Shown here: in pieces, positions 12,762 to 53,033 of the stretch
Layout: the number at the start of each line of letters is the position of its first letter
Position numbering within the stretch: position 1 is the stretch's first letter
Assembly: GCA_020060545.1 (NCBI GenBank)
Contig: JAGUZX010000043.1
Location: 21,020 to 85,019, forward strand
Length of the DNA stretch: 64,000 nt
Direction of reading: 5' to 3'
Source of the DNA: Desulfovibrio sp.
Lineage (GTDB): Bacteria > Bacillota > Dethiobacteria > DTU022
The notes under the pieces: generated by a model
Told to the model about the DNA's origin: nothing
Databases searched by the model: none
Seen by the model: only the letters and a program-made list of their open reading frames with translations
Position numbers and translations under genes: made by a program

Positions 12762-12877
12762 GTGCCAAAACTGATCGCATCACGCCAAGACCGGCGATGT
12801 GATCGTTTGCGAGATTTTCGAGAGGGGGGAATAAAGCAACGCAGCATGATCTTGCCCTAAAACTCGCCTAAATTAAC

Positions 12878-12960
12878 GATAATGGCAAACCTGCCGCAAG
12901 GCGGGGACGCAAAGCCAAGGGCCTTTCGCAAGGATGGCAGCCTGGCCGCCGGGGGAAAAA
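12878..12960 (+). ncRNA. c-di-GMP-I (GEMM) riboswitch, copy 1
   Basis: GGCAAACC-UGCC-GCAA(tetraloop)-GGCGGGGACGCAAAGCC followed by a P2 region. It matches the invariant GEMM core (…GGCAAACC…GNRA…GGGACGCAAAGCC…) of the V. cholerae Vc2 aptamer. It lies 25 nt upstream of the RBS of the second TasA-like gene. Confidence 0.8.
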
Positions 12961-12986
12961 GATAAGTGTAAATGGAGGGAGCAAAA

Positions 12987-13604
12987 ATGAATCGAAAAGT
13001 AATGATGAGCGTCCTGGTGATCCTGATGGCCACGGCGGCCGTGGCCGGCGCCACCATGGCCTGGTTTACCGACACGGCAACAGTTGAACCCAACACTTTC
13101 GTGGCGGGGACATTGAAAATCAGGGCCAACGAGGTGTTCAATTGGGCGGATCAAACCAGGCCCAATTGGAACCCCGGGGACTGTGACCAAAAGGAAATTA
13201 CCCTTGAAGTGACGGGGACCAAGTCGGTCTATCTCCGGGCCCGGATTACGGAAACATGGACCATGGTCGGTGCAAGCACGGTAACTTACACCAGGCGGAA
13301 TGCGCCGAACATCACCTGGAAAGTGAACGGACAACCCTGGAACCATGACGGCGCCTGGCAGTTGATCACCATCGACGGCGTTGATTACTGGTTCTATAAA
13401 GGCCCCGTTGACGCCAAACTGGCCTCGGGAGCGCAATTGCTGGTTCTTTCGGAGGTCTGCCTGGATGGAGCGGCCACGGGCAACGACTACCAGGGGGCTA
13501 CGTATACGCTGGCCATTTCTTTTGAAGCGGTTCAGACCACGAACCAGGCGGTAAACGATGTATGGGGATACAAGTTCGAAGGCGGTTCATGGGTGCCCAG
13601 ATAG
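12987..13604 (+). CDS. TasA/camelysin-like secreted protein 2 with SipW-cognate signal peptide
   Basis: ATG 6 nt after GGAGGGAG. Signal peptide followed by ATMAWFTD. 205 aa. Paralogous to 12183..12761. Confidence 0.8.
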   Translation: MNRKVMMSVLVILMATAAVAGATMAWFTDTATVEPNTFVAGTLKIRANEVFNWADQTRPNWNPGDCDQKEITLEVTGTKSVYLRARITETWTMVGASTVTYTRRNAPNITWKVNGQPWNHDGAWQLITIDGVDYWFYKGPVDAKLASGAQLLVLSEVCLDGAATGNDYQGATYTLAISFEAVQTTNQAVNDVWGYKFEGGSWVPR

Positions 13605-14714: not shown

Positions 14715-14911
14715 GTTAGTAATCGATCCTATGCGGATGTATCATCCCAAAAAAAACTTGTGACTGGTAATATTTGTTGCAGGAATTTAAGGTTTATTGG
14801 CCAAAATAAGTATATGGATGTTTGGATTGGATGAGCTGTTAATTGAGACCTTAAAGGAGATGATGGCCGGCAAGATCCTGACTGCGAATTCAAGCAAGTA
14901 AAAATCCTGAC

Positions 14912-15000
14912 CGACAAGGCAAACCCGTCGAGAGGCGGGGACGCAAAGCCAAGGGTCTAAAGCCCGATTGACGGGCCATGATCGCCAGGCTACCGAAACA
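14912..15000 (+). ncRNA. c-di-GMP-I (GEMM) riboswitch, copy 2
   Basis: GGCAAACCCGUCGAGAGGCGGGGACGCAAAGCCAAGGGUCUAAAGCC…GGCUACCGAAACAGG. Same core as copies 1 and 3. The downstream GGTCCCTC…GAGGGAC hairpin (15020-15042) can sequester the RBS. Confidence 0.8.
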
Positions 15001-15048
15001 GGTTTTATTATTTCGGCTGTCGGTCCCTCACAAAGGAGGGACTTTATT

Positions 15049-16140
15049 TTGAGCAAAATAAGGTTTATTAATAGCATCGTGATCAGCGTTGTGATCGCCC
15101 TGATCCTTTCACTGCCGGGGATTTCAAAAATTACTGCCAGGGAAGATCTGACAATTTCGACTGTGGGCGCCGCGTCAAACGAAGCGGGAGCAGAAGAAGG
15201 CCCGGTGTTGCGGGAAGCAACGGCCGGCCTGCCTGGCGGCCCCGATCAGATTGGCCAGGCGGAAGCGGAAATAAACGGTGGTGCCGGAAACGCACCGGAA
15301 CAAAGTTCAACGCCGGGTTCCAGCCCGGAGCAGGGCGCTGTGCCAAAGCAGGAACTGGCTGCCGGGGAACAGTTGACGGAGAAGTCAACAGGCGCGCCGC
15401 CGCAGGAAGCGGTGAAAAATGAACCGGTCCAGGAGACGGTAAAAAGCGAGCCGGCCCCGCCCCCAACCAAGAGTGAAACGCCGCCGCCTGCCGCGCCGGT
15501 CAGCTTCAGTTGGGGCGCCGCGCAAACCTATCGTTACCGCACGGAGATAGTGTTAACCAACAGCGGAGCGGAAGTTTCACAGGGCGTACTGGTCAGGCTG
15601 CCCCTGCTGGAAAACAGCTCGCCGTATCAAAACACCACCCTCACTTCCATTAACTATGAACCTCTTGAGACCACGGGAAGGACAAGCTCTTTTCATCTCG
15701 GAGACATGCAGCCGGGTGAAACGAAAACGCTAATCGTGGATTATACCATTACGGTGCGCCCCGTTTGGCTCAATTCAACCAATGCGACCGTGGAAAAAGC
15801 AAGGCAGGCTTACCGGGAGTACGCCGGGAGCGGCAACTGCTTTGTTCTGGCGGCCGGTTTTGTAAACCGCAGCCGGGAATTGGGTCTTACCGCGCGGGTG
15901 GTCAACGGGATTGCCAACCCGCAAAGAGGGATATTCGCGCCGGGCTATATCCAAAACCGTCACAGCTGGGCCGAGTTTTATGTCGAAGGGCCGGGTTGGG
16001 TTCCGGTTGACCTTACTTTTCAATATTTCGGGCAGCTGCCCCAGGCTTCCCATATCGTCGAGAACTACGCCGACCAATCGCTGAAGCTCAACTATTTCGG
16101 GGGCAGAGTAAGCGCAGTTTGGCACACCAGAATCCTGTAA
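15049..16140 (+). CDS. Secreted transglutaminase-like cysteine protease superfamily protein with Pro/Glu-rich spacer
   Basis: TTG start 8 nt after GGAGGG, downstream of the riboswitch. Signal/TM MSKIRFINSIVISVVIALILSL. C-terminal transglutaminase-like core (Cys in GNCFVLAAGF, His in HSWAEFY, Asp in VPVDLT). Confidence 0.7.
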   Translation: MSKIRFINSIVISVVIALILSLPGISKITAREDLTISTVGAASNEAGAEEGPVLREATAGLPGGPDQIGQAEAEINGGAGNAPEQSSTPGSSPEQGAVPKQELAAGEQLTEKSTGAPPQEAVKNEPVQETVKSEPAPPPTKSETPPPAAPVSFSWGAAQTYRYRTEIVLTNSGAEVSQGVLVRLPLLENSSPYQNTTLTSINYEPLETTGRTSSFHLGDMQPGETKTLIVDYTITVRPVWLNSTNATVEKARQAYREYAGSGNCFVLAAGFVNRSRELGLTARVVNGIANPQRGIFAPGYIQNRHSWAEFYVEGPGWVPVDLTFQYFGQLPQASHIVENYADQSLKLNYFGGRVSAVWHTRIL

Positions 16141-41902: not shown

Positions 41903-42127
41903 ATGAACATCCTTGTGGTACAGAAACGGCTGCCGTACCGCCCGCAGTGCCTGGGCGATCAGGCCGATGCTTTTTTAAAAGAGGTGCGGCAGCTGATCCG
42001 GGCCGCCGAAATCCAGCACGCCTCGTGCTCCCTGGAGCTGTCCGATATCGGCTTCGCCCCGGCCGGGGATTATATTGAAGTAAAGCTTTACTTCCGTGAG
42101 CATGCCCTTTTGAGCCGTGAGAAGTGA
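41903..42127 (+). CDS. Small hypothetical protein
   Basis: ATG 9 nt after GGGAGG. 74 aa. Unknown function. Confidence 0.4.
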   Translation: MNILVVQKRLPYRPQCLGDQADAFLKEVRQLIRAAEIQHASCSLELSDIGFAPAGDYIEVKLYFREHALLSREK

Positions 42128-42192
42128 GCGATCGGATGTGAGAAAAAACAAAAAAAACCATGAAAAATATTAGATTATTTGGAAATCAGTAT

Positions 42193-42220
42193 TGACTACT
42201 GGCAAAAAAACGTGTAATAT
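42193..42220 (+). promoter_or_regulatory. Sigma-A-type promoter driving the riboswitch leader (TTGACT-16-TAATAT)
   Basis: Near-consensus -35 and -10 hexamers ~40 nt upstream of the GEMM aptamer. Confidence 0.5.
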
Positions 42221-42254
42221 GTTTTTTGAAGTAAGTTGATAATGCGAATAAAAC

Positions 42255-42342
42255 TCGTTTCAGGGCAAACCCGTTGAAAAGCGGGGACGCAAAGCCGACA
42301 GGCCTAAAGCGCTACTGCCAGGGCGGCTGGGTTACCGGGCGG
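42255..42342 (+). ncRNA. c-di-GMP-I (GEMM) riboswitch, copy 3
   Basis: CAGGGCAAACCCGUUGAAAAGCGGGGACGCAAAGCCGACAGGCCUAAAGCGCUACUGCCAGGGCGGCUGGGUUACCGGGCGG. Near-identical to the Vc2 consensus (GGCAAACC…GAAA…GGGACGCAAAGCC…GGCCUAAA…GGGUUACCG). Confidence 0.88.
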
Positions 42343-42345
42343 ATC

Positions 42346-42382
42346 AAAAATCCCAAGGAAAACCCTGGGGATTTTTATGTTT
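42346..42382 (+). terminator. Intrinsic terminator forming the riboswitch expression platform
   Basis: AAAAAUCCCAAGG-aaaa-CCCUGGGGAUUUUU hairpin followed by AUGUUUU. Confidence 0.6.
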
Positions 42383-42456
42383 TAGCATCAAACAGGATTG
42401 AGTTTTTTCGAGGTAATTTAGGCTACACTTCTTTTTTCTATAATTTACGACAGTTA

Positions 42457-42485
42457 TTGACAAAATAATCTGTCTGGTTCATAAT
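42457..42485 (+). promoter_or_regulatory. Second sigma-A-type promoter (TTGACA-17-CATAAT) immediately upstream of pilB
   Basis: Consensus -35 and a good -10 hexamer, 40 nt upstream of the pilB RBS (AGGGAGGAG). Confidence 0.5.
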
Positions 42486-42525
42486 AAAAGAAAAAAATGC
42501 CTTTTTTATCAGGGAGGAGAAACTG

Positions 42526-45138
42526 ATGGTACGCTTTGTCCGCAAGCGATTGGGCGATATCCTTTTGGAAGCCGGCGTCATCACGGAACAGCAGCTGGAA
42601 GAAGTATTGCAGGAACAGGTCACCAGCCGCAAACGGATCGGGCGGCTGCTCATCGAAAAAGAGCTGATCACCGAGGAACACTTGATCGATATCCTCGAGC
42701 GGCAGCTGGGCATCTCCCAGGTCAATCTCTATAACTATAATATCGACCCGAAGGTCGCCTCGTTGATCCCCATGTCGCTGGCCCAACGCTACATGGTGAT
42801 TCCAATTGGCAGAAAAGAACAAAAGATAATCCTGGCCATGGCCGACCCGATGAATATTATCGCCCTCGATGATGTGGCTATGATTACCGGTTCAGAGATC
42901 ATCCCGGTAATCGCTTCGGAGAGTTCTGTCCAGCATGCCATCAACCAAATCTATGGCCTGCAGGAGTCCCTGGAGATGAGCCTGGAGGATAAGAAAGTCA
43001 AGACCAAAGAAGACGAGGAGGAGCTCGCACGGCTGCGCGCCCTGGTGGAAGACGCACCCATTGTCAAAGTAGTCAATTCGCTGATCCACCAGGCGGCCAG
43101 CGAAGGGGCCAGTGACATCCATATCGAGCCGTCGGGCAAAGGGGTCAGGGTGCGCATGCGCATCGACGGGATCCTGCATGACCTGATGTCGCCGCCGAAA
43201 GACACGCAACCCTTAATTGTTTCCCGGATCAAGATCATGGCCAACCTGGACATCGCAGAGCGAAGGCTTCCCCAGGACGGTCGGATCCAGATGCAGGTGG
43301 GCTTAAACGACATCAACCTCCGGGTCTCGACGATGCCCACCATTCACGGTGAGAAAGTAGTAATCCGGCTGCTGGAAAAAGACCGGGTGATCGTTTCCCT
43401 GGACAAGCTTGGTTTTAATGAGCACAATTTCGAACTTTACAAACAATTTTTATTAAACCACTCCGGCATGATCCTGGTCACCGGGCCAACCGGTTGCGGT
43501 AAAACCACGACCCTTTATTCAACCTTGAATTATCTCAACCGTCCGGAGGACAATATCATCTCCGTGGAAGACCCGGTGGAATACCGCCTGGACGGGGTCA
43601 ACCAGATCCAGGTCAACCCGCGCATCAATTTAAACTTTGCCAACGCCCTGCGTTCCATCCTCCGGCAGGATCCCAACATCATCATGATCGGTGAAATCAG
43701 GGATCTCGAGACGGCGGAAATCGCCACCCGCGCCGCGCTGACCGGGCACCTTGTCCTGAGCACCCTGCACACCAACGATGCCGTCCGGGCCATCTCCCGG
43801 CTGATCGATATGGGCGTGGAAAACTATTTGATTACCTCCTCCCTGGTCGGCGTGATCGCCCAGCGCCTGGTCAGGCTGATCTGCCCCCACTGCCGCGAGA
43901 GTTACGCGCTCCCGGACCGGGAAAAAATCTTATTTCAAAAGATTTTCCGAAAAGTACCTCTGCAAACGCTTTACCGGGGGGCGGGGTGCAAAAGCTGCAA
44001 CCAGACCGGCTACCGGGGCCGCATCGCCATCCACGAGGTGCTTTCGGTCAGCCCCGCGATCCGGCGCCTGGTCCTGGCGGGAGCGACAGTGGAGCAGCTG
44101 CAGCGGCAAGCCCTGGTGGAGGGGATGGTTACCCTTCTGGAGGATGGGCGCCGCCGGGTTGAAGAAGGAATTACTTCCCTGGAGGAAATCTTGCGGGTCG
44201 CTTTTAACAGCATGAATATCGACGGTGAAAGCAGGCATCTCGAACCGGCGGTTGAGGCGGTTGGAGCGGCTCAAACGGCTCCGGAGGCGCCGGCGGTCGG
44301 GCTTGTTCCGGAAAGCGGGCGCTTGACCGGCGCCGGGCCTGAAATAATGCCTGGACGCGCCGGCTTGCAGCAGCCTCCCGCCCGGGAAGAAAGCAGTTAT
44401 GTTTTTAACCAGCTTAAAAACATGAAAGGCGCGCCTGTAACGCCTGGTGTTACCGCCCGGGAAATGCAGCCGGAAAAAATAATCACGCCCGCCGTCGCCA
44501 TCAAATTAAAAGGCCCCGCCAGCGCCAAAGTCGGTGAAACCTATACCTGCCATTTCAGCGTGATCAATAAGGGGAATGTGCCTTTAACCGGGGTAACGGT
44601 AACGGATTCACTCTTCGGAGAGGATTGGAGTTACCCGATCGGAGAGCTTCCGCCTGGCGCCGAATCGGCGTTTGTGATGAACTTTACCACCGACAGGGGG
44701 CATGCCGGCAGCCTGGAGAATACGGCCACGGTTACGGGATTTTACCGGTCAACCCCTGTTACCGCCCAGGACAAGCAGATCATCGAGATTATCGATCTTG
44801 TCCAGCCCGGCCTGGCTATTGAAATCTCCGGTCCGGCCACAGCCATACCCGGGGAAACGGTAGTTTATAAATTCACGGTTACCAATTCTGGCAGTGTTCC
44901 CCTGAAAAGGGTCAAAGTCACGGATCCCCTTTTCGGCACCGGCTGGCGCAACTTCATCAACGCGATCGCGCCGGGACAATCGGTTAAATTCAACGTGGAG
45001 TATACCATTCCGGCAAGCGCCTATGCGCGGCTGAAGAATACGGCCACCGCCTCCGGATGGCATGAAGACGAGGTAACCGCGCAGGGGAGTCACACGATCG
45101 AGATTTTGTCCTGGCAAACCGGGACCGTGTCGAGGTGA
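42526..45138 (+). CDS. pilB: Type IV pilus assembly ATPase PilB/GspE with N-terminal MshEN-type c-di-GMP-binding motif and a C-terminal extension of two DUF11 repeat domains
   Basis: N-terminus KRLGDILLEAGVITEQQLEEVLQEQ fits the MshEN RLGxxLLxxGxIxxxxLxxxLxxQ motif, and a second partial copy follows. Walker A GPTGCGKTT, Asp and His boxes, and a tetracysteine Zn motif (CPHC…CKSC). The core ends …GITSLEEILRV and is followed by a ~300-aa in-frame extension with two ~100-aa DUF11-like repeats (…TVTNSGSVPL…V.VTD…). Confidence 0.85.
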   Translation: MVRFVRKRLGDILLEAGVITEQQLEEVLQEQVTSRKRIGRLLIEKELITEEHLIDILERQLGISQVNLYNYNIDPKVASLIPMSLAQRYMVIPIGRKEQKIILAMADPMNIIALDDVAMITGSEIIPVIASESSVQHAINQIYGLQESLEMSLEDKKVKTKEDEEELARLRALVEDAPIVKVVNSLIHQAASEGASDIHIEPSGKGVRVRMRIDGILHDLMSPPKDTQPLIVSRIKIMANLDIAERRLPQDGRIQMQVGLNDINLRVSTMPTIHGEKVVIRLLEKDRVIVSLDKLGFNEHNFELYKQFLLNHSGMILVTGPTGCGKTTTLYSTLNYLNRPEDNIISVEDPVEYRLDGVNQIQVNPRINLNFANALRSILRQDPNIIMIGEIRDLETAEIATRAALTGHLVLSTLHTNDAVRAISRLIDMGVENYLITSSLVGVIAQRLVRLICPHCRESYALPDREKILFQKIFRKVPLQTLYRGAGCKSCNQTGYRGRIAIHEVLSVSPAIRRLVLAGATVEQLQRQALVEGMVTLLEDGRRRVEEGITSLEEILRVAFNSMNIDGESRHLEPAVEAVGAAQTAPEAPAVGLVPESGRLTGAGPEIMPGRAGLQQPPAREESSYVFNQLKNMKGAPVTPGVTAREMQPEKIITPAVAIKLKGPASAKVGETYTCHFSVINKGNVPLTGVTVTDSLFGEDWSYPIGELPPGAESAFVMNFTTDRGHAGSLENTATVTGFYRSTPVTAQDKQIIEIIDLVQPGLAIEISGPATAIPGETVVYKFTVTNSGSVPLKRVKVTDPLFGTGWRNFINAIAPGQSVKFNVEYTIPASAYARLKNTATASGWHEDEVTAQGSHTIEILSWQTGTVSR

Positions 45139-45147
45139 CGCTCCCCG

Positions 45148-46233
45148 TTGACTTTAGAGATTAACGATCTTTTAATGGAAACGGTGGCACAGGGCGCTTC
45201 GGACCTGCACATCTCGGTGGGGATCCCGCCGCTGCTGCGGCTGCACGGTGAGCTAGTGCCGATGTCCAGGCCCCCTTTGCGCCCGGCGGACACGGCCGGC
45301 CTGGTCCGGCAGGTGCTGACCGAAGCCCAAGCGGAAACTTTTTTGGCCAGCGGTGAACTGGATTTTTCCTTTTCCGCTCCCGGCGTGGGGAGGTTCCGGG
45401 TCAATGTTTACCGCCAGCGCGGCACCGCGGCGATGGCCATGCGGGCGGTGACCGGGGAGATCCCCTCCCTGGAAAGTTTGGGCCTGCCCGCGGTAACGGC
45501 GCAGCTGGTAAAATATCACAAGGGGCTGGTCCTGGTCACCGGCCCGACCGGCAGCGGCAAATCGACCACCCTGGCGGCGATGATCGACCTGATTAACCAG
45601 CAGCGCCGCTGCCATATTCTGACGCTGGAGGACCCGATCGAATACCTGCACCAGCATAAAAAAAGCATGGTCAACCAGCGCGAGATCGGCCAGGACAGCG
45701 CCGGGTTCGCCCGGGCGTTGCGTTCGGCCCTGCGCCAGGATCCCGATGTAATCCTGGTCGGCGAGATGCGCGACCTGGAGACGATCGCCATCGCCATCAC
45801 CGCCGCCGAGACCGGGCACCTGGTGCTGGCGACCCTGCATACCGTGGACGCCCCCCAGACGATCGACAGGGTGATCGATGTTTTTCCCCCGCACCAGCAG
45901 CAGCAGATCCGGGTCCAGCTGGCCAATACCCTGGTCGGGGTGCTCTCCCAGCGCTTGCTCAAGCGTCAAGGCGGGAAGGGGCGGGTGGCGGCGGTTGAAA
46001 TCCTGCTCAACAACGCGGCGGTGCGCAACCTGATCCGTGAAGGAAAGGTTTACCAGCTCTATTCGGTGATGCAGACCGGCTCGCGCAGCGGGATGCAGCT
46101 GATGGATGCAAGCCTGGTCAAGCTCTACCAGCAGGGTGCGATCGATTACGATACCGCCCTGGAGCATGCCGCGAAGCCGGAAAACATGAAAAACGTTATC
46201 TCCGCTCCGGGCGGAAGAGAGTACAACCTTTAG
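45148..46233 (+). CDS. pilT: Twitching-motility retraction ATPase PilT
   Basis: Walker A GPTGSGKST and the PilT AIRNLIRE-like motif (AVRNLIREGK). 361 aa. TTG start after GAGGTGA. Confidence 0.9.
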   Translation: MTLEINDLLMETVAQGASDLHISVGIPPLLRLHGELVPMSRPPLRPADTAGLVRQVLTEAQAETFLASGELDFSFSAPGVGRFRVNVYRQRGTAAMAMRAVTGEIPSLESLGLPAVTAQLVKYHKGLVLVTGPTGSGKSTTLAAMIDLINQQRRCHILTLEDPIEYLHQHKKSMVNQREIGQDSAGFARALRSALRQDPDVILVGEMRDLETIAIAITAAETGHLVLATLHTVDAPQTIDRVIDVFPPHQQQQIRVQLANTLVGVLSQRLLKRQGGKGRVAAVEILLNNAAVRNLIREGKVYQLYSVMQTGSRSGMQLMDASLVKLYQQGAIDYDTALEHAAKPENMKNVISAPGGREYNL

Positions 46234-46246
46234 GAGGAGTCGCTTC

Positions 46247-47476
46247 TTGTCGCCGAACTACCACTACAGGGCCAAGGATTGGGGAGGCAAAACCGTGGAG
46301 GGCGTTTACTCGGCAGTGAATTTACGCGAGGCGCTTGATCACCTCCGCGCCCGGGACCTGTTCGTATTGGATCTGAAAGAGCAGGCCGCTACCGCCGGGC
46401 GGTCGTCCCGGCGGGGGAGACCGGCCGGTCTCCTGAGCAGAAAAAAGGTGAAGAGCCGCGATCTGATGGTTTTCTGCCGCCAGTTCCACACGATGATCCA
46501 GGCCGGCACTACCGCTTTGCAGGGCCTCAAAGTCCTGGCCCAGCAGGCGGAGCATCCCTTACTCGCGGAGAAGCTTGACGCGGTTGCCGTCAGCGTGGAA
46601 CGGGGCAGCACGCTGGCCGAGGCTTTCGGGCGGCACCCGGCGGTTTTCCCGAGCATCCTCGTCAACATGGTCAACGCCGGCGAGGAAGGAGGGGTGCTCG
46701 ATACGGTCATGGACCGCCTGGCCGACCACTTTGAGAAACAGCACGACCTGGAGATGAAAATCAGTTCCGCCACGACCTACCCAATCGTGATCACAGCGCT
46801 GGCTTTTGCGGTGATGGCACTGATGGTCCTCTTCGTCCTGCCGCAGTTCGCCGCGATTTTCGAAGGCCTGGGCATGCGGCTGCCCTGGATCACCCGGGCG
46901 CTGCTGGAGGTAAGCCACTTTGTGATCAAGTATTGGTACCTGGTGCTGGGGCTCCTGGCTGGACTGGTGGTCGCATTGGCGTATTACATTAAAACTGAAC
47001 GGGGCAGGCGGGCCTACGACCGCGCCCGCCTCAAGGTGCCTCTGTTCGGCCCGATCTACCGGAAAGCGGTGGTGGCCCGTTTTGCGCGCACCCTGGGCAC
47101 GCTCATCGCCAGCGGGGTGGACCTGATCAACGCCCTGGAGCTGGTCGAGCGCGTGATCGACAACCGTATTTACGCGGAAACGCTGGCCCGGACCCGGGAC
47201 GTGATCCGCCAGGGACAGGCCATAGCGCTGCCGCTGGCCGCCAGCGGCCTCTTCCCGCCGATGCTGGTGGAGATGGTCCACGTCGGCGAAGAAACGGGCG
47301 CCCTGGACAACATGCTCTCCCGCACCGCCGACTTTTACGAGCAGGAGGTCACCTTCTTCCTGGATCGGCTGGGCACGATCATCGAGCCTCTGCTTCTAAT
47401 CGGGATCGGCATATTCGTCGGGCTGCTCCTGGTTTCCATTGTCATGCCGATGTTCCAGATCTACGAGATGATTTAG
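46247..47476 (+). CDS. pilC: Type IV pilus platform protein PilC (GspF family)
   Basis: Two T2SSF domains. 409 aa. Confidence 0.9.
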   Translation: MSPNYHYRAKDWGGKTVEGVYSAVNLREALDHLRARDLFVLDLKEQAATAGRSSRRGRPAGLLSRKKVKSRDLMVFCRQFHTMIQAGTTALQGLKVLAQQAEHPLLAEKLDAVAVSVERGSTLAEAFGRHPAVFPSILVNMVNAGEEGGVLDTVMDRLADHFEKQHDLEMKISSATTYPIVITALAFAVMALMVLFVLPQFAAIFEGLGMRLPWITRALLEVSHFVIKYWYLVLGLLAGLVVALAYYIKTERGRRAYDRARLKVPLFGPIYRKAVVARFARTLGTLIASGVDLINALELVERVIDNRIYAETLARTRDVIRQGQAIALPLAASGLFPPMLVEMVHVGEETGALDNMLSRTADFYEQEVTFFLDRLGTIIEPLLLIGIGIFVGLLLVSIVMPMFQIYEMI

Positions 47477-47566
47477 CAGAAAAGACAGTTCAAGGTTAAA
47501 CCCTTCCAAGGGAAACCTTTTTACATAGAGAGAGAGAAATAATAGACGGGAAAGGAGGTGAAAATG

Positions 47567-47953
47567 ATGATTTTGAAGATAGCGCAGCTTTTGCGCTGCC
47601 TGCACAGGGAGGAGAAAGGTTTCACCTTAATCGAACTGCTTGTTGTTATCGCCATCCTCGGCGTCCTGGCCGCGATCGCCGTGCCGCTGGTGTCGGCCCG
47701 GATTGAAGAGGCAAGAGGAGCGGCCAATACGGCCAACCTGTCGCTGCTGCAGAAGGCGGTTGAGCTTTACCGGGCGGATACCGGCGTGCTGCCGGCTGTA
47801 GGCGCAGCTTTCCAGACCGACTTAGTCACCCAGCCTGCTAATGTTACCGGCTGGAAAGGCCCATATATAAGGGAGGCAGTTTCTCCACCTGCAGGTTACG
47901 GGGACTATACCATGAGTGATACTGGAGTTGTGTCTAATGCAGTTGCACCGTAA
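47567..47953 (+). CDS. pilA: Type IV major pilin (prepilin; class III signal peptide)
   Basis: Leader followed by G/FTLIELLVVIAILGVLAAIAVP, with E at +5. ATG 6 nt after GGAGGTG. Followed by a strong terminator. Confidence 0.85.
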   Translation: MILKIAQLLRCLHREEKGFTLIELLVVIAILGVLAAIAVPLVSARIEEARGAANTANLSLLQKAVELYRADTGVLPAVGAAFQTDLVTQPANVTGWKGPYIREAVSPPAGYGDYTMSDTGVVSNAVAP

Positions 47954-48000
47954 GAGTAGCTAAACAGCATGTGTACAGCTTGAGAGTAGAGATGATAAGA

Positions 48001-48033
48001 GCGGCGGCAGCGCTGCTGCCGCCGCTATATTTA
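48001..48033 (+). terminator. Rho-independent terminator/attenuator after pilA
   Basis: Perfect 11-bp stem GCGGCGGCAGC-gc-GCUGCCGCCGC followed by UAUAUUU. Confidence 0.75.
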
Positions 48034-48161
48034 AATCCGAAAATTGATTGCCGCGTAGCGGCCGCAATAATAGCTCTGGTGCATCATTGAGCCCATGTTT
48101 TTTGGCCGTGGTGCCGGTATTGAATCCTTTTCTCCCCCTTTATATGGAGAGGCAAATAAGG

Positions 48162-48623
48162 ATGGTGGTTGCGGTGCGCGAAAATAAAATCCTGTTGATG
48201 AAAAACGAGGGCGGATATACCTTTGTGGAACTGATCGTGAGCATCACCATCCTTGCCATCGTCACCGTCCCGATCCTTTCTCTCTTCGTCAGCGGATACA
48301 CCGTGCTGGCTTCGGCAGGGAGGCAGACGATCGCCGCCAACCTCTGCCGGGAGAAGATCGAGGCGGTCAAGGTGAACGGGTACGACTTCTACATGCAGTA
48401 TTTCGAGCAGCACGGGGCGAACCTTTACCGGGAAGAAGAGAACCCGGTGGAGGGGTTTCCCGTTTTCCGGCGCGTGACCAGGGTCTGGGAAGAAAATGTG
48501 TTGCCCGACCCTCTCACCCCGGATTTCCAGATCAGCCTGCTGAAAATCATTGTCCAGGTGTTCTGGGAGCATCAGGGCGCGGAGCGCGCGGTGCAGATGG
48601 AAACCAACCTGGCCAGAAGGTGA
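48162..48623 (+). CDS. Minor pilin/pseudopilin (prepilin-type N-terminus)
   Basis: …NEGG/YTFVELIVSITILAIV with Glu at +5. Confidence 0.7.
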   Translation: MVVAVRENKILLMKNEGGYTFVELIVSITILAIVTVPILSLFVSGYTVLASAGRQTIAANLCREKIEAVKVNGYDFYMQYFEQHGANLYREEENPVEGFPVFRRVTRVWEENVLPDPLTPDFQISLLKIIVQVFWEHQGAERAVQMETNLARR

Positions 48624-48627
48624 AACC

Positions 48628-49110
48628 GTGAAGAGAAGCAAGCAAGACAAAGGGTTTACCCTGGCTGAAGTCTTGATGGTTGTGGCTATTCTCGGCCTGG
48701 TCATAGCCGGCATTTACAGCTTTTACTTTTCCGGCCTGCGCAGCTGGCACAAAGGCGTGGACCGGATGGACTACCAGCAGAGCGCCCGCATCGCCATGGA
48801 TAAAATCGTCAAGGAGCTGCAGTTTGCCAACCAGGTTACCGTGGGCGGGGGCGGAACGGAACTCCGCTACAGCTTCGTTAACGACGAAAATAATTACGTC
48901 TTCAAACGGGTAGGGCCGGAGAACGAAGACCTGGTATTAATTTACGAGCGCGGCGACGGCTCTTCGACACAGCTTAAAATAGCCCTGGGCATCACCGGTC
49001 TCGACTTTTCCATCGATGCCCGGAACTATGTCCGGATTACCGTCAGCGCCGGCGCCGGCGCGGAGCGGGTGACCCTGCACAGCAGTGTTCGTCCCAGGAA
49101 TATACCTTGA
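48628..49110 (+). CDS. Minor pilin/pseudopilin (prepilin-type N-terminus)
   Basis: GTG start. KG/FTLAEVLMVVAILGLVIA. Confidence 0.7.
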   Translation: MKRSKQDKGFTLAEVLMVVAILGLVIAGIYSFYFSGLRSWHKGVDRMDYQQSARIAMDKIVKELQFANQVTVGGGGTELRYSFVNDENNYVFKRVGPENEDLVLIYERGDGSSTQLKIALGITGLDFSIDARNYVRITVSAGAGAERVTLHSSVRPRNIP

Positions 49111-49140
49111 TTTTCCGGCGGATCAAAGGAGATTGATGCA

Positions 49141-50298
49141 ATGGACCGGTTTTTCGGTGCGGAGCGGGGTTCGGTTCTGGTCATGGTGTTGGTATTTTCC
49201 GCCGCCCTGCTGATCCTCGGCGGAGCTCTGATCACCTACGCCGTGAACGACAACTTTATCGCGCGCCACCAGGAGCATGACACGCGGCTCTACTATATCG
49301 CCGAAGCCGGGATCGAAGCGGGCGTGGCAGCTTTACGCAAGAATTACTCCTTTCACCGCAATATCGAACAGGAAATCGGCGGTGGAAGCTACCACGCCAC
49401 CATTATCATTCCTCCCCACGCCGATTACCCGGAGCTGCCCGCGGGGCAGCGCATGGTTATCTCCACCGGCCGCCTGGAAGGCAAGGCGCTGACCCTAAAA
49501 GTGATCGTCTCGCTGAACGACCTCTATTCCAAGGCGCTGATGGTCTCCAGTAAGCTGCATCTTACGAATACTACGATCAACGGCAACCTGCATTACAACG
49601 AATTGCTGAAAGTGCTCCCCGGGACGACCGAGATCCGGGGAGACCTGAGCTACCCCCAGGGCAAGGCTCCGGAAATCGTCCCCCCGGCCGTACTGACCGT
49701 CACTGGGCAGACCAGCATCGCACCGCCCATCCCTATCCCTACCATTGATTTCGACAGCTTTATCAAGGACGTGGATATAACTTATACCGGCAGCCAGACT
49801 TGGACTACGGCGCCGCCGTTTAAGAAAATACTGGTTAAGGGCGACTTGACCGTCAGGCCTGGGAAAGATCAGACCTTCGACTTTAACGGGGTGATTATCG
49901 TCCAGGGCGATCTAACAATCAATCCCCAAAAGGGCGCCAATACTTTCCTCAACGGCTCTTTTGTCGCGGGCGGCGGGATCAAGGTCCAGCCCGATGCCGA
50001 CATAAACCCGGCAATGAATGAAAAGAAAGTAATTTTTGTCTCCAACCGGTATATCAACATCTCTACCACCGGCAGCACCGCCCCCGCCCTGTTCGGCGGG
50101 AGCGTGCTTCTTTTTTCCAAGGGGGATATCAATATCTCCGGAAAAACAGACGATAAGCTGCAGATATTCGGCACGATTATCGCGGAAGGCACCTTCTACC
50201 TGACAGACGCCGTGCTGACTTACGACCCCGATGTTTTCATCGATTCCGATTATATCCCCGGATTACAGGTGGTGATCAGGGAATGGCTGAAACTCTAG
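49141..50298 (+). CDS. PilX-N-domain minor pilin-like protein with large beta-rich C-terminal domain
   Basis: ERGSVLVMVLVFSAALLILG is a PilX_N-type hydrophobic N-terminus. 385 aa. Confidence 0.65.
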   Translation: MDRFFGAERGSVLVMVLVFSAALLILGGALITYAVNDNFIARHQEHDTRLYYIAEAGIEAGVAALRKNYSFHRNIEQEIGGGSYHATIIIPPHADYPELPAGQRMVISTGRLEGKALTLKVIVSLNDLYSKALMVSSKLHLTNTTINGNLHYNELLKVLPGTTEIRGDLSYPQGKAPEIVPPAVLTVTGQTSIAPPIPIPTIDFDSFIKDVDITYTGSQTWTTAPPFKKILVKGDLTVRPGKDQTFDFNGVIIVQGDLTINPQKGANTFLNGSFVAGGGIKVQPDADINPAMNEKKVIFVSNRYINISTTGSTAPALFGGSVLLFSKGDINISGKTDDKLQIFGTIIAEGTFYLTDAVLTYDPDVFIDSDYIPGLQVVIREWLKL

Positions 50299-50369
50299 CA
50301 GGCCCGGCGGAAGAAACCGGTGCAGCCACGGCGCATAATCTGCTTCTCCAGCAGGCGGCGCCGCGAAAA

Positions 50370-51440
50370 ATGCGGTTAAAAGGGCGTTACTCCAAGATCG
50401 GCCTTGACCTCGGCTCGTCCCAGATTAAGCTGGCCCAGTTAAAGCACAAAAACGGGCAAATCTACCTCTGGCAGTACGGGATTTATCCCCTGCCCGAAGG
50501 GGCGCTCGAAGGGGGTAAGGTGGAAGATCCGGGCTTGCTCGCCGAACGCTTGCAGTGGGTCCTCCAGAGGCGCCGCTTTCATAAACGGCGGGTGAACCTT
50601 TGCGTGGGCAGCCAGAACGTAGTCCTGCGCCAGGTGCTCCTGCCGGAGATGCACCCCAAGGAAATCCCCTCTGCCGTCCGCTGGGAGGCGGAGAAGCAGG
50701 TCATGATGCCCCTGGAGGAGACCGTGGTCGACTACCTTTACCTGGGCAGGCGGCTAGTCGATGATAAAATGATGATCGAGCTGGCGCTGGTCGCGGTGCC
50801 CAAGGAAGTGGTTAACGGGTATCTCGAGGCGGTTACCGGCGCCGGTTTTTACCCCGAGGCGATCGAAATAGAACCCCTGGCCCTGCAGCGGATGCTGAAC
50901 CTGGAACTGCCCGGCGGCGCTGCCGGGGATCCGGCCATCTCCATGCTGCTGGATTTGGGGGCGGAATACAGCAACCTTGTCCTCCTGAAGAACGGCCATT
51001 TCCGCTTTGCCCGCACCCTGAGCATCGGGGTGGATCATTTTTGCCGCCGTGTGGCCGAGGCGGGGCAGTTAAGCCTGGAAACAGCGCGGCGCCAAATTTT
51101 CAGCCGGGATCCTTTTTCCCTGGATGGTTTTCAGGATGTTGCCGATGACCTGGCCAACCAGGTCAGCCGTTCGATAGAATATTATGCCAATAATATTTGG
51201 GACGGCAAGCGACAAGGATCGGAGCAAGAGATGGAAATCAACCGGATGTTATTCTGCGGCGGAGGGGCCGCGATAGATCGGCTGGCTTCTTTCCTGGGTT
51301 TTGAGCTTAAGGTTGAACCGAAGCTGCTCAGCCCTCTGGAATTTATCCAGGCCGGTAAGAAGCTATACCAGCCGGACCTGGAGCAGGAGGAAAACATGCT
51401 TAACGTGGCGGTGGGCCTGGCCTTGCGGGGGTGGCGCTGA
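50370..51440 (+). CDS. pilM: Type IV pilus assembly protein PilM (actin-like ATPase fold)
   Basis: KIGLDLGSSQIKLAQL N-terminal motif. The start is chosen at the internal ATG; the upstream in-frame extension lacks an RBS. Confidence 0.75.
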   Translation: MRLKGRYSKIGLDLGSSQIKLAQLKHKNGQIYLWQYGIYPLPEGALEGGKVEDPGLLAERLQWVLQRRRFHKRRVNLCVGSQNVVLRQVLLPEMHPKEIPSAVRWEAEKQVMMPLEETVVDYLYLGRRLVDDKMMIELALVAVPKEVVNGYLEAVTGAGFYPEAIEIEPLALQRMLNLELPGGAAGDPAISMLLDLGAEYSNLVLLKNGHFRFARTLSIGVDHFCRRVAEAGQLSLETARRQIFSRDPFSLDGFQDVADDLANQVSRSIEYYANNIWDGKRQGSEQEMEINRMLFCGGGAAIDRLASFLGFELKVEPKLLSPLEFIQAGKKLYQPDLEQEENMLNVAVGLALRGWR

Positions 51441-51991
51441 TGAAAACCGAAATTAACCTGCGCCCGAGGGCGTTCGTCGTTTCCAGGGAGTTTTACTGGC
51501 CCAGGGTCCTGGGTACCCTTGCCGGCTTGCTGCTCATCCTGGCCGTGGCGGGAGGCTCTGTTTTACTCTATCTATACCAGGTTAACCTGGAAGCTGAAAC
51601 CGCCCTGCTCAGAGGAAATGTCGAGCAGCTCCGGGTTGAAGCGGCTCCGATCGCGGCCATAGAAGAGGAGCTCCGTTCGTTTAAAGACAGGGCGCAGCTG
51701 AAAGACAGGTTGATCGGGTCAAGTTCTTTATCCTGGTCCGGCATGCTGCAGGAGGTAGATGACCTGGCGGAGCGGGGCGCGATTGATCTGGAACATCTGG
51801 CCGGCAGCGCCGGCGGCGGGATAGTCATCCGGGGTAACGGCTTGACCATGCGCGGTGTGGCGGCTTTCCTGCAAGACCTGGAGAAGCTCAATTTTCTTCG
51901 TGATGTGGTCCACCTGTTCATCTCTCTAAATACAATGGACAGATTCGGCTTTGAAGCCAAAGCCAGTCTGACCGATGGGGGCTCGAAATAG
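51440..51991 (+). CDS. pilN: Type IV pilus assembly protein PilN
   Basis: ATGA overlap with the pilM stop. MKTEINLRP, a single TM helix and a coiled coil. Confidence 0.75.
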   Translation: MKTEINLRPRAFVVSREFYWPRVLGTLAGLLLILAVAGGSVLLYLYQVNLEAETALLRGNVEQLRVEAAPIAAIEEELRSFKDRAQLKDRLIGSSSLSWSGMLQEVDDLAERGAIDLEHLAGSAGGGIVIRGNGLTMRGVAAFLQDLEKLNFLRDVVHLFISLNTMDRFGFEAKASLTDGGSK

Positions 51992-51993
51992 TC

Positions 51994-52536
51994 TTGGTTC
52001 AACAAAAACAGCCTGTTTCCAAACAACTGAAAATACTGCTGCTGCTGGCCGTTGTTGCGGTTGGTTTTCTGGCCTGGCGCTATTATTGGAACCCTAAGCT
52101 CCAATTACTGGCCGGGTTAAGGCTGGAACAGGCGCAGCTGCGCGGCGAATACGCCCGTCTTGACGAAAAGATAAAGGTTCAAAAGCAAGTGGAGCAGGAA
52201 TGGCGGCGGTGGCGGGAAGAAGGAGAACAGTTGAAGGTTCTGCTCCCTTCGATACAGGAGCTGCCCCGGGTTTTGGGAAACCTGGAGGATATACTGGGGC
52301 GGTACCCGCTTTTGATTGAATCTTTCGCCTCCGGTGAATTGAGAAAAGACCCGGGTTATGTCGTAGTTCCCTTATCATTGCGTGTTTCGGGTCCTGACGC
52401 GGAACTGATGGCTCTTTTAGCGGAGTTGGAACAATTTCCTCACCTGCTCCTGATCGAGCAGGTTGCCTGGCAGAAGCAACCGGAGCAGTCAATCCTTAAT
52501 CTAAACTTTGCCCTTGTTTTACTACCGGAAGGGTAG
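51994..52536 (+). CDS. pilO: Type IV pilus assembly protein PilO-like
   Basis: TM helix plus coiled coil. Positionally and structurally PilO. Confidence 0.65.
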   Translation: MVQQKQPVSKQLKILLLLAVVAVGFLAWRYYWNPKLQLLAGLRLEQAQLRGEYARLDEKIKVQKQVEQEWRRWREEGEQLKVLLPSIQELPRVLGNLEDILGRYPLLIESFASGELRKDPGYVVVPLSLRVSGPDAELMALLAELEQFPHLLLIEQVAWQKQPEQSILNLNFALVLLPEG

Positions 52537-52559
52537 GTTAATGCATTAATGGGGCGGTA

Positions 52560-53033
52560 ATAAGGAAAAACGGCCAATGTGGCTTTTCTTATGTGGAATT
52601 GCTGTGCGTCATTGCCATCCTGACCGTGCTCTATCTGCTTGCTGTGCCGTACGTGTTTAATATCATACATAAGTCAAAGCTGGAGGCGGCGGCCTGGCGG
52701 TTGGTTTCAGACATGCGCCTGGCGCGCCAGGCGGCGATAACCACCGGCAAAACCACCCGGATCGAGTTCCGGGAAGCGGCCGGCGACTACCGGATTTTCC
52801 TCCCCGAGAAGACGGTCAGGGTGCGGCTGCCGGACAGTATAGTGTACGCCGGAAATAATTTTCCCCTCGTGCAGGGCGTAAGGAAGGTCAGTTTTACCCC
52901 CACCGGGGCTCCCAGCCAGGGAGGCACCGTCATTTTTAAAAACAGGCGGGGCGATAAGCTGTATGTGGTCATGACCCCGGCCACCGCCCGGATCAGGGTC
53001 TCCAAGGTCCCCCCCGCCCACTGGGATCAGTAA
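52560..53033 (+). CDS. GspH/FimT-like pseudopilin; prepilin N-terminus lacks a canonical start codon
   Basis: The in-frame sequence from 52560 reads (ATA)RKNGQCG/FSYVELLCVIAILTVL. The only canonical start, GTG at 52593, lies after the prepilin cleavage motif. Confidence 0.55.
   Translation: MRKNGQCGFSYVELLCVIAILTVLYLLAVPYVFNIIHKSKLEAAAWRLVSDMRLARQAAITTGKTTRIEFREAAGDYRIFLPEKTVRVRLPDSIVYAGNNFPLVQGVRKVSFTPTGAPSQGGTVIFKNRRGDKLYVVMTPATARIRVSKVPPAHWDQ

What the first reader, a model, noticed from the sequence alone, without database searches (positions are those of the whole stretch)
42193..42525. Third GEMM riboswitch with terminator platform in front of the type IV pilus operon; promoter-riboswitch-terminator-promoter arrangement
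The best-conserved aptamer copy (42255-42342) is followed by an intrinsic terminator (42346-42382). It is preceded by a TTGACT-16-TAATAT promoter and followed by a second TTGACA-17-CATAAT promoter before pilB. This looks like dual input: constitutive or other-factor transcription from P2, plus c-di-GMP-gated read-through from P1. Combined with the MshEN motif in PilB, pilus production is tied to c-di-GMP at both the RNA and protein level.
Basis: partly seen in the sequence, partly recalled or inferred. Interest (0 to 1): 0.75.

Follow-up and report, generated by a model that had tools for sequence, protein, structure and literature searches.

The report
c-di-GMP riboswitch before pilus operon
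A well-known type of RNA sensor for the bacterial signal c-di-GMP sits, with its own promoter and a stop signal, upstream of a second promoter and the type IV pilus genes; this is a sound annotation of a known kind of element rather than a new mechanism.

Summary
Rfam places a full-length c-di-GMP-I aptamer at 42254-42339 (67.6 bits, cut-off 35). A hairpin with a U-tract follows at 42346-42383. P1 lies at 42192-42220 and P2 at 42457-42485, ahead of pilB (42526). Two details are wrong: the P1 spacer is 17, not 16, and this aptamer is the lowest-scoring of the three in the window.

Related pilB loci from Dethiobacteria-like MAGs support each part. P1, aptamer and terminator recur in seven distinct relatives. 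P2 (TTGACAAA...ATAAT) is invariant in six long-PilB relatives, including some without a riboswitch. Two relatives repeat the whole P1-aptamer-terminator-P2 layout.

The terminator never overlaps the aptamer. The aptamer's 3' strand pairs with the terminator apex and 5' arm in every relative, with one compensatory change. That is the layout of the Cd1 off-switch, so c-di-GMP probably causes termination of P1 transcripts, while P2 is independent of the riboswitch. In this genome the antiterminator is the weakest and the terminator the strongest, so P1 transcripts may mostly terminate.

PilB carries a tandem MshEN c-di-GMP motif. Precedents are Cd1, Vc2/tfoY and C. difficile pilA1. Verdict: new member of a known kind, nothing tested experimentally.

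The parts
42192..42220 (+). P1, sigma-A/sigma-70-type promoter (TTGACT-17-TAATAT). Expected start near 42227, giving a leader of about 27 nt before the aptamer.
   Evidence: 9/12. TTGAC(T/A)-17-TA(T/C)A(A/G)T occurs at the same place in seven distinct relatives: L174, L170, L176, L083, L086, L081 and L165. The start site is inferred, not mapped.
42254..42339 (+). c-di-GMP-I (GEMM-I) aptamer. P1 stem is CUCG 42254-42257 with CGGG 42336-42339. Ligand-contact equivalents are G42264, A42291 and C42335.
   Evidence: Rfam RF01051, 67.6 bits, full-length match. The contact-nucleotide assignment uses Vc2 numbering from my own knowledge and was read from the sequence.
42329..42365 (+). Predicted antiterminator (alternative fold). 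GGGUU 42329-33 pairs with AACCC 42361-65, CC 42335-36 with GG 42357-58, G42339 with C42354, and GGAU 42341-44 with AUCC 42350-53. It excludes both the aptamer (base of its second hairpin plus the P1 closing stem) and the terminator.
   Evidence: It is the MFE of the nascent transcript ending at 42366. On its own it folds at -12.7 kcal/mol, z -1.5. All six relatives folded with it give the same topology. The RNAalifold consensus is an 8-bp outer helix with UA:4 / UG:2 / CG:1 at one pair.
42346..42383 (+). Intrinsic terminator: hairpin 42346-42376 and U-rich tract 42372-42383. The terminated P1 RNA would be about 155 nt.
   Evidence: dG -14.3, z -2.2. Aligned with canonical terminators in relatives.
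42457..42485 (+). P2, second sigma-A-type promoter (TTGACA-17-CATAAT). It lies downstream of the terminator, about 40 nt before the pilB ATG.
   Evidence: 11/12. TTGACAAA and ATAAT are invariant in all 7 sequences of alignment A2 (window plus six relatives), where the flanks vary. The scanner calls it in L174, L170 and L165. Start site not mapped.
42512..42519 (+). Ribosome-binding site GGGAGGAG of pilB.
   Evidence: Read. GGGAGG is conserved in alignment A2.
42526..45138 (+). pilB, the type IV pilus assembly ATPase, 870 aa. Pfam MshEN 61-148 and T2SSE 174-557, plus a C-terminal extension with CARDB/DUF7507/DUF11 repeats.
42547..42705 (+). Codons 8-60 of pilB, the tandem MshEN c-di-GMP-binding motif. 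Motif I is RLGDILLEAGVITEQQLEEVLQEQ, the spacer is VTSRK, and motif II is RIGRLLIEKELITEEHLIDILERQ.
   Evidence: compared with the consensus quoted in PMC11731258. Motif I matches 11/11 key positions. Motif II matches 9/11 (L2 to I, G10 to E). Binding not tested.
45148..53033 (+). Rest of the type IV pilus operon: pilT-like ATPase, pilC (T2SSF), pilin and minor pilins (N_methyl), a PilX_N-like protein, pilM, an unassigned ORF, pilO and a GspH-like pilin.

Best explanation
This is a class I c-di-GMP riboswitch with a transcription-terminator expression platform. It sits between two tandem promoters of the type IV pilus operon.

P1 (42192-42220) makes a leader that contains the aptamer (42254-42339). 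The terminator (42346-42383) does not overlap the aptamer.

When the aptamer is empty, its 3' strand (42329-42339) and the linker pair with the terminator's 5' arm and apex. This antiterminator (42329-42365) lets RNA polymerase run on into pilB. When c-di-GMP is bound, that strand is locked inside the aptamer, the terminator forms, and P1 transcripts end as an RNA of about 155 nt. That makes it an off-switch of the Cd1 type.

P2 (42457-42485) lies beyond the terminator and gives riboswitch-independent transcription of pilB-pilT-pilC-pilins-pilMNO. In this genome the antiterminator is weak and the terminator strong, so P2 is probably the main source of pilB mRNA. P1 would add to it mainly at low c-di-GMP.

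PilB itself carries an MshEN c-di-GMP-binding motif, so the same signal probably also acts on the protein.

Shown here: the aptamer match, the hairpin, the promoter matches, their conservation in relatives, and the alternative pairings. Inferred: transcription starts, the polarity of the switch, ligand binding, and the relative strength of P1 and P2.
For: Aptamer: RF01051 at 67.6 bits, full length.

The aptamer recurs upstream of pilB in L170-173, L081/82, L083/84, L085/86, L174 and L176/177. A motif search for the aptamer core found it in none of about 160 more distant pilB loci.

Every copy is followed by a hairpin plus U-tract, after a gap of 3-29 nt from the end of the Rfam aptamer match and with no overlap.

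Antiterminator: the same topology is the MFE of the segment from the aptamer 3' strand to the terminator apex in all seven sequences, z -1.5 to -3.4. The RNAalifold consensus has 8 pairs, one compensatory (UA/UG/CG) and several G:C/G:U. It is the MFE of the window transcript ending at 42366.

Locking the aptamer 3' strand raises the terminator pair probability from 0.21-0.70 to 0.71-1.0 in five relatives.

The experimentally characterised Cd1 off-switch has this logic. Aptamer and terminator coexist, the antiterminator is built from the aptamer 3' strand plus both terminator strands (called A, T and H in that paper), and it is only transiently stable. The pilM on-switch instead has mutually exclusive aptamer and terminator (PMC9262584). 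C. difficile class I riboswitches are mostly off-switches (10.1101/617340).

P1 is conserved in seven relatives and P2 is invariant in six. L174 and L170 repeat the whole layout. L165 has P1 and P2 with nothing between them.

MshEN motif.
Against: Everything is computational. No start site, terminated RNA or ligand response has been observed.

In the window the antiterminator is 8.4 kcal/mol worse than the terminator fold. The terminator forms at 0.99 probability in both modelled states. Switching would therefore have to be purely kinetic, or may be absent, as reported for Bc1 (PMC11218506).

The window's antiterminator z-score (-1.5) is unremarkable on its own.

The comparative set is small, at seven distinct relatives that share ancestry, with only one double compensatory change.

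An off-switch on pilus genes is opposite in sign to the C. difficile pilA1 riboswitch.

The promoter matches are not statistically unusual in an AT-rich spacer.
Confidence: 0.6

Rival explanations
1. Same parts, opposite sign: an on-switch. c-di-GMP binding prevents the terminator, so P1 read-through adds pilB transcription at high c-di-GMP, in step with activation of PilB through its MshEN motif.
For: By analogy, c-di-GMP turns type IV pilus genes on in C. difficile through the pilA1 riboswitch (PMC6366702). The Geobacter pilM cyclic-dinucleotide riboswitch is an on-switch (PMC9262584). An MshEN motif in PilB would fit positive control.
Against: The terminator does not overlap the aptamer in any of the eight loci, so a ligand-bound aptamer leaves it free to fold.

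The only conserved competing pairing uses the aptamer's own 3' strand, which is available only when the aptamer is not folded.

A possible extension of the P1 closing stem (42223-42229 with 42344-42350) lies mostly upstream of the expected P1 start. It has no counterpart in L170, whose leader is only about 8 nt.
Confidence: 0.12
2. In this genome the P1-riboswitch-terminator unit no longer gates pilB. P1 transcripts essentially always terminate and yield a stand-alone RNA of about 155 nt that carries the aptamer. That RNA could be a small RNA or c-di-GMP sponge, or have ligand-dependent stability as with the P1-Vc2 sRNA. P2 would be the only effective pilB promoter.
For: Terminator probability is 0.99 with or without the aptamer strand free, and the antiterminator is 8.4 kcal/mol less stable than the terminator fold. 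The terminator is lengthened by an A5:U5 extension.

Two of the eight positions of the relatives' outer antiterminator helix are non-pairs in the window, A.A and C.A. In the window's own fold, two C:G pairs beyond a small internal loop replace them.

P2 is conserved and is sufficient in relatives that lack the riboswitch.

Precedents: most Vc2-containing transcripts never reach tfoY and accumulate as sRNAs (10.1101/617340). Bc1 does not respond to c-di-GMP (PMC11218506).
Against: The aptamer is intact and scores well above threshold. The antiterminator topology is retained and is the MFE of the nascent transcript at 42366.

The Cd1 antiterminator is likewise only transiently stable, yet Cd1 switches.

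Relatives L176, L083 and L086 have no P2, so in them the riboswitch must gate pilB.
Confidence: 0.2
3. P2 is not a working promoter, only an AT-rich consensus look-alike or a protein-binding site. All pilB transcription would come from P1 through the riboswitch, which would then be an ordinary single-input leader.
For: Promoter-like matches in this AT-rich spacer are not significantly enriched (3 found against 1.4 +/- 1.0). Relatives L176, L083 and L086 manage without P2.
Against: P2 is an 11/12 match with a 17-nt spacer. TTGACAAA and ATAAT are invariant in all 7 sequences of alignment A2 at a constant 40-46 nt from the ATG.

It is the only promoter-like site before pilB in L169 and L175, and also in L178, although only 136 nt of upstream sequence is held for that locus.
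Confidence: 0.08

Closest known systems
Cd1, the c-di-GMP-I riboswitch of the Clostridioides difficile flgB (flagellar) operon
   Same: Class I aptamer followed by a separate intrinsic terminator. Aptamer and terminator can coexist. The antiterminator is built from the aptamer's 3' strand plus the terminator strands and is only transiently stable. Ligand binding leads to termination (PMC9262584).
   Different: Cd1 controls flagellar genes and has a longer platform. Here the target is the pilus ATPase operon and a second promoter lies beyond the terminator. The polarity here is predicted, not measured.
Vc2 riboswitch and tfoY locus of Vibrio cholerae
   Same: A class I c-di-GMP aptamer with promoters both upstream of it and at or beyond its 3' end. 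Some transcripts are therefore riboswitch-dependent and others riboswitch-independent. It is an off-switch, and the upstream promoters mostly yield short aptamer-containing RNAs (10.1101/617340).
   Different: Vc2 acts on translation and RNA stability, not through a demonstrable intrinsic terminator. Its downstream promoters are VpsR- and c-di-GMP-activated. The target is a regulator of motility, not pilus genes.
Cdi-2-4, the class II c-di-GMP riboswitch upstream of C. difficile pilA1
   Same: A c-di-GMP riboswitch with a terminator platform that controls type IV pilus genes in a Gram-positive anaerobe (PMC6366702).
   Different: It has a class II aptamer with an unrelated fold, it is an on-switch, and it precedes the pilin gene rather than pilB.
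Geobacter metallireducens pilM riboswitch (cGAMP-sensing relative of the class I aptamer)
   Same: A closely related aptamer fold with a terminator platform in front of a type IV pilus assembly gene (PMC9262584).
   Different: It senses cGAMP and is an on-switch whose terminator overlaps the aptamer. In the window the selectivity position equivalent to Vc2 G20 is G42264, as in c-di-GMP binders, and the terminator does not overlap the aptamer.
MshEN-type c-di-GMP-binding N-terminal domains of pilus and secretion ATPases (V. cholerae MshE, T. thermophilus PilF)
   Same: Two 24-residue RLGxx(L/V/I)(L/V/I)xxG... motifs separated by 5 residues at the N-terminus of the ATPase (PMC11731258; window sequence).
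   Different: Motif II here has I for L at position 2 and E for G at position 10. Binding is untested. This PilB also has an unusual C-terminal extension of Ig-like repeats.

Membership tests
c-di-GMP-I riboswitch aptamer (Rfam RF01051, GEMM-I) | Covariance-model score at or above the curated gathering score over the full model. | tested here: met
   67.6 bits against 35, model positions 1-87/87, E 4e-11. Only hit in the region at E<=1.
c-di-GMP-I riboswitch aptamer (Rfam RF01051, GEMM-I) | Ligand-contact nucleotides equivalent to Vc2 G20, A47 and C92. G rather than A at position 20 distinguishes c-di-GMP binders from cGAMP binders. | tested here: met
   G42264 precedes GCAAAC. A42291 follows GACGC. 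C42335 lies in GGGUUACC. Read. The numbering and roles come from my own knowledge of the Vc2 structures.
c-di-GMP-I riboswitch aptamer (Rfam RF01051, GEMM-I) | Binds c-di-GMP. | not testable with these tools
   Needs in-line probing, ITC or an equivalent binding assay.
Transcriptional off-switch with intrinsic terminator (Cd1 type) | G+C-containing hairpin followed by a U-tract directly downstream of the aptamer. | tested here: met
   42346-42376 plus the U-rich tract to 42383, dG -14.3. Canonical terminators at the matching position in relatives.
Transcriptional off-switch with intrinsic terminator (Cd1 type) | Aptamer and terminator do not share nucleotides and so can coexist. The antiterminator uses the aptamer's 3' strand. 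| tested here: met
   The gap between aptamer and terminator is 6 nt here and 3-29 nt in relatives. The antiterminator fold is conserved in topology. The criterion is taken from PMC9262584.
Transcriptional off-switch with intrinsic terminator (Cd1 type) | Freeing or locking the aptamer 3' strand shifts the balance between terminator and antiterminator. | tested here: inconclusive
   Clear in five relatives (0.21-0.70 rising to 0.71-1.0). In the window and L174 the terminator is about 0.96-0.99 in both states at equilibrium. A kinetic effect cannot be judged.
Transcriptional off-switch with intrinsic terminator (Cd1 type) | c-di-GMP increases termination. | not testable with these tools
   Needs single-round transcription with and without c-di-GMP.
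Sigma-A/sigma-70-type promoters (P1 and P2) | -35 and -10 hexamers with a 16-18 nt spacer, conserved in position among relatives. | tested here: met
   P1 9/12 and P2 11/12, both with a 17-nt spacer. P1 is present in 7 relatives and P2 is invariant in 6.
Sigma-A/sigma-70-type promoters (P1 and P2) | A transcription start about 7 nt downstream of the -10 hexamer. | not testable with these tools
   Needs 5'-RACE or dRNA-seq.
MshEN c-di-GMP-binding domain | Pfam MshEN (PF05157) domain at the N-terminus of a T2SSE ATPase. | tested here: met
   70.5 bits against 23.1, residues 61-148. T2SSE at 465 bits.
MshEN c-di-GMP-binding domain | Two 24-residue RLGxx(L/V/I)(L/V/I)xxG(L/V/I)(L/V/I)xxxxLxxxLxxQ motifs separated by 5 residues. 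| tested here: met
   Residues 8-31 match 11/11 key positions, the spacer is 32-36, and residues 37-60 match 9/11. PMC11731258 prints the last spacing as xxxx. The 24-residue length it states fits xxx, and that version is the one matched here.
MshEN c-di-GMP-binding domain | Binds c-di-GMP. | not testable with these tools
   Needs ITC or a DRaCALA binding assay on PilB residues 1-150.

The most novel reading that the evidence does not exclude
The riboswitch and its terminator form a movable cassette inserted between two tandem pilB promoters. In related genomes the cassette is present between both promoters (window, L174, L170), present with P1 alone (L176, L083, L086), or absent while both promoters remain (L165).

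It would give type IV pili an incoherent two-level response to c-di-GMP. The signal shuts off the P1 share of transcription at the RNA level, while it binds PilB through its MshEN motif, which may activate the protein already present. P2 sets a floor. Such wiring would produce a pulse or band-pass response of pilus assembly to c-di-GMP.
Probability: 0.25. Interest if true: 0.5.

Novelty: new member of a known kind. Interest (0 to 1): 0.3.

Why it matters
It extends riboswitch control of type IV pili by c-di-GMP to a little-studied lineage of anaerobic Bacillota (best protein hits are Dethiobacteria MAGs). It involves a different aptamer class from the C. difficile pilA1 paradigm, and probably the opposite sign.

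The natural series of layouts among relatives is a ready-made comparative system. It could show how a riboswitch's regulatory weight is tuned by a bypass promoter.

If the off polarity and MshEN binding both hold, the locus would be a compact example of one second messenger acting with opposite signs on the synthesis and the activity of the same machine.

As an annotation, it assigns the 400-nt spacer before pilB completely.

Tried and rejected
None carried the aptamer core, and the organism was not identified.

2. The metagenome scan gave only three close loci with usable upstream sequence.

4. An on-switch through a long-range extension of the P1 closing stem (UUUUUGA 42223-42229 with UCAAAAA 42344-42350) was rejected. 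Most of the 5' strand lies upstream of the expected P1 start, and relatives have no counterpart.

5. An antiterminator made of aptamer CCAGGG (42318-42323) with terminator CCCUGG (42363-42368) was rejected. It is not conserved in L170, L086 or L081 (sequences).

6. An Rfam scan at permissive E-value looked for a second RNA element between the terminator and pilB, and for aptamer remnants in L165. It found nothing.

7. The column-wise covariation tool was not used on the full aptamer-to-terminator alignment A4. MAFFT puts the terminator apex out of register between sequences. Trimmed segments were folded with RNAalifold instead.

8. A literature search for the ligand of the GGC variant found nothing useful.

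Full report
**What is in the sequence**

The 398-nt spacer between a small ORF (stop at 42127) and pilB (ATG at 42526) is fully accounted for.

- Aptamer. Rfam finds a full-length c-di-GMP-I aptamer at 42254-42339 on the + strand, at 67.6 bits against a gathering score of 35. Nothing else in 42100-42560 matches any family, even at E<=1.
- Ligand contacts. The nucleotides that contact the ligand in the Vc2 structures have their usual identities: G42264, A42291 and C42335. That assignment rests on my own knowledge of those structures. The G at the first of these fits c-di-GMP rather than cGAMP.
- Other aptamers. Two further aptamers of the same clan lie at 12875-12954 and 14908-14997. 'Third' is therefore right, but this one has the lowest score of the three, not the best.
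- Terminator. Six nucleotides after the aptamer, 42346-42376 folds into a 9+3 bp hairpin (dG -14.3 kcal/mol, z -2.2), followed by AUGUUUU. The consensus scanner reports the hairpin only on the - strand, because an A.C mismatch interrupts the stem on the + strand.
- Promoters. P1 is TTGACT-17-TAATAT at 42192-42220 (9/12; the spacer is 17, not 16). P2 is TTGACA-17-CATAAT at 42457-42485 (11/12).
- Genes. pilB (870 aa) has MshEN and T2SSE domains. It is followed by pilT, pilC, pilins, pilM and pilO.

**Is it more than chance?**

The promoter matches alone are not. Three sites were found in 1.5 kb against 1.4 +/- 1.0 in shuffles. The support comes from related loci.

PilB homologues at 55-70% identity come from Dethiobacteria and other Bacillota MAGs. 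I fetched their loci.

- Aptamer. A c-di-GMP-I aptamer precedes pilB in L170-173, L081/82, L083/84, L085/86, L174 and L176/177. A motif search for the aptamer core found it in none of about 160 more distant pilB loci.
- P1. Each copy is preceded by TTGAC(T/A)-17-TA(T/C)A(A/G)T.
- Terminator. Each copy is followed by a hairpin plus U-tract.
- P2. TTGACAAA and ATAAT are invariant in alignment A2 of the window and six long-PilB relatives, at 40-46 nt from the ATG, while the flanks vary.

Three layouts exist:

| Layout | Loci |
|---|---|
| P1, aptamer, terminator, P2, pilB | window, L174, L170-173 |
| P1, aptamer, terminator, RBS, pilB (no room for P2) | L176, L083, L086 |
| P2 without aptamer | L169, L175 |
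| P1 and P2 in tandem, 74 nt apart, nothing between | L165 |

Two loci fall outside these layouts. L081 has P1, the aptamer and the hairpin, then about 140 nt with no P2-like site. L178 has P2, but too little upstream sequence is held to say whether it has an aptamer.

Each part is individually conserved.

**Which way does it switch?**

In all eight loci the terminator lies 3-29 nt beyond the end of the Rfam aptamer match and shares no nucleotide with it. A ligand-bound aptamer therefore cannot prevent the terminator.

What does compete with the terminator is a pairing of the aptamer's 3' strand (GGGUUGCC) with the terminator apex (GGCA(A/G)CCC). That strand comprises the 3' side of the aptamer's second hairpin, the ligand-pairing C, and the start of the P1 closing stem. 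The pairing is usually extended by a helix between the linker and the terminator's 5' arm.

- Conserved fold. Folding the segment from the aptamer's 3' strand to the first bases of the terminator's 3' arm gives this same fold as the MFE in all seven distinct sequences, z -1.5 to -3.4.
- Covariation. RNAalifold returns the 8-bp outer helix as consensus. One pair runs UA:4 / UG:2 / CG:1, and others vary between G:C and G:U.
- Equilibrium shift. In five relatives, locking the aptamer's 3' strand raises the terminator pair probability from 0.21-0.70 to 0.71-1.0. The antiterminator fold is the overall MFE, or within 3 kcal/mol of it, in all six relatives folded.

This is the logic established by NMR and modelling for the Cd1 off-switch. 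There the aptamer and terminator coexist, the antiterminator is built from the aptamer's 3' strand plus the terminator strands, and it is only transiently stable. The pilM on-switch instead has mutually exclusive aptamer and terminator (PMC9262584). Class I riboswitches of C. difficile are reported to be mostly off-switches (10.1101/617340).

I therefore predict that c-di-GMP terminates P1 transcripts.

**The window copy is the extreme case**

Its outer antiterminator helix is cut to 5+2 bp, with A.A and C.A where relatives pair. Its terminator is lengthened by an A5:U5 extension.

The antiterminator is the MFE only for the nascent RNA ending near 42366. With the terminator complete, the terminator fold wins by 8.4 kcal/mol. 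It forms at 0.99 probability whether or not the aptamer strand is free.

Either switching here is purely kinetic, or P1 transcripts mostly terminate and P2 carries pilB expression. The second case would leave an aptamer-bearing RNA of about 155 nt. That recalls the P1-Vc2 sRNAs and the non-responsive Bc1 riboswitch (PMC11218506).

**Protein level**

PilB residues 8-31 (RLGDILLEAGVITEQQLEEVLQEQ) match all 11 key positions of the MshEN c-di-GMP motif. A 5-residue spacer follows. Residues 37-60 (RIGRLLIEKELITEEHLIDILERQ) match 9 of 11 (consensus from PMC11731258). Binding is untested.

**Comparison with what is known**

| Known system | Aptamer class | Polarity | Target | Source |
|---|---|---|---|---|
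| C. difficile pilA1 riboswitch | class II | on | pilin gene | PMC6366702, |
| Geobacter pilM riboswitch | cGAMP-sensing relative of class I | on | pilus assembly gene | PMC9262584, |
| C. difficile Cd1 | class I | off | flagellar operon | PMC9262584, |
| V. cholerae Vc2/tfoY | class I | off | motility regulator | 10.1101/617340, |

The Vc2/tfoY locus already shows promoters both upstream and downstream of a class I aptamer, with riboswitch-independent transcripts from the downstream ones.

The present locus combines these known features in a new lineage: a class I, Cd1-like platform, a pilB operon as target, and a bypass promoter. It is a new member of a known kind. The modest points of interest are the predicted negative sign on pilus genes alongside an MshEN-bearing PilB, and the natural series of layouts among relatives.

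**Limits**

- All evidence is computational.
- The organism was not identified.
- The comparative set is seven distinct, related sequences.
- Promoter strength, start sites, termination efficiency and ligand binding are inferred.

Noticed in passing
window 44200-45138 (PilB residues ~560-870): PilB carries a C-terminal extension of about 310 aa: a Pro/Ala-rich linker followed by two CARDB/DUF7507/DUF11 Ig-like repeats, with no obvious membrane segment. The same extension occurs in homologues P0002-P0014 from Dethiobacteria MAGs. This is unusual for a cytoplasmic pilus ATPase.
   Followed up: partly
window 12875-12954 and 12972-13604: An aptamer of the c-di-GMP-I-GGC variant (RF03167, 70.5 bits) lies about 50 nt before the ATG of a Peptidase_M73/camelysin-like gene, with no terminator in between. 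This looks like a translational platform. The ligand of this variant was not established.
   Followed up: partly
window 14908-14997 and 14968-16140: The best-scoring c-di-GMP-I aptamer of the window (79.4 bits) precedes a transglutaminase-like gene. A hairpin with a U-run that includes the AAGGAGGG ribosome-binding site follows it.
   Followed up: no
L165 2826-2957 (also L166, L167): P1 (TTGACT-17-TATAAT) and P2 (TTGACA-17-GATAAT) lie in tandem 74 nt apart before pilB, with no aptamer or terminator between them and no Rfam hit at E<=5. The riboswitch and terminator behave like a cassette that has been gained or lost between two promoters.
   Followed up: partly
L085 1076-1160 and L086 2335-2419: In these relatives the aptamer in the pilB leader scores best as the GGC variant (RF03167) rather than standard c-di-GMP-I. 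Ligand specificity of the pilB leader may differ within the clade.
   Followed up: no
L081 1-2536: Two Peptidase_M73 genes and a sortase lie directly upstream of the riboswitch-pilB unit. The two kinds of riboswitch-controlled surface genes seen 30 kb apart in this window are neighbours in a relative.
   Followed up: no
alignment A2: L165, L169, L175, L178, L174, region from the P2 spacer to +15: The P2 spacer and the first transcribed bases (ATGCAT.ACATGGATAATAAGATCGAA) are nearly identical in five relatives but differ in the window. This could be a binding site for a regulator.
   Followed up: no
window 42128-42191: There is no terminator-like site between the stop of the 96-aa ORF (42127) and P1. 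Read-through from the upstream HAD-hydrolase and small-ORF genes would also meet the riboswitch. In L170 and L174 the upstream genes are instead pilin-like (DUF7305 and N_methyl).
   Followed up: no
window 42352-42369, - strand: The same hairpin reads as a terminator on the - strand (CCCAGGG-UUUU-CCUUGGG followed by AUUUUUG), although no - strand gene converges on it.
   Followed up: no
window 10108-12186: A 692-aa protein has an N-terminal response-regulator receiver domain and about 570 residues with no Pfam match at E<=0.001. It lies just upstream of the first two riboswitch-controlled genes.
   Followed up: no
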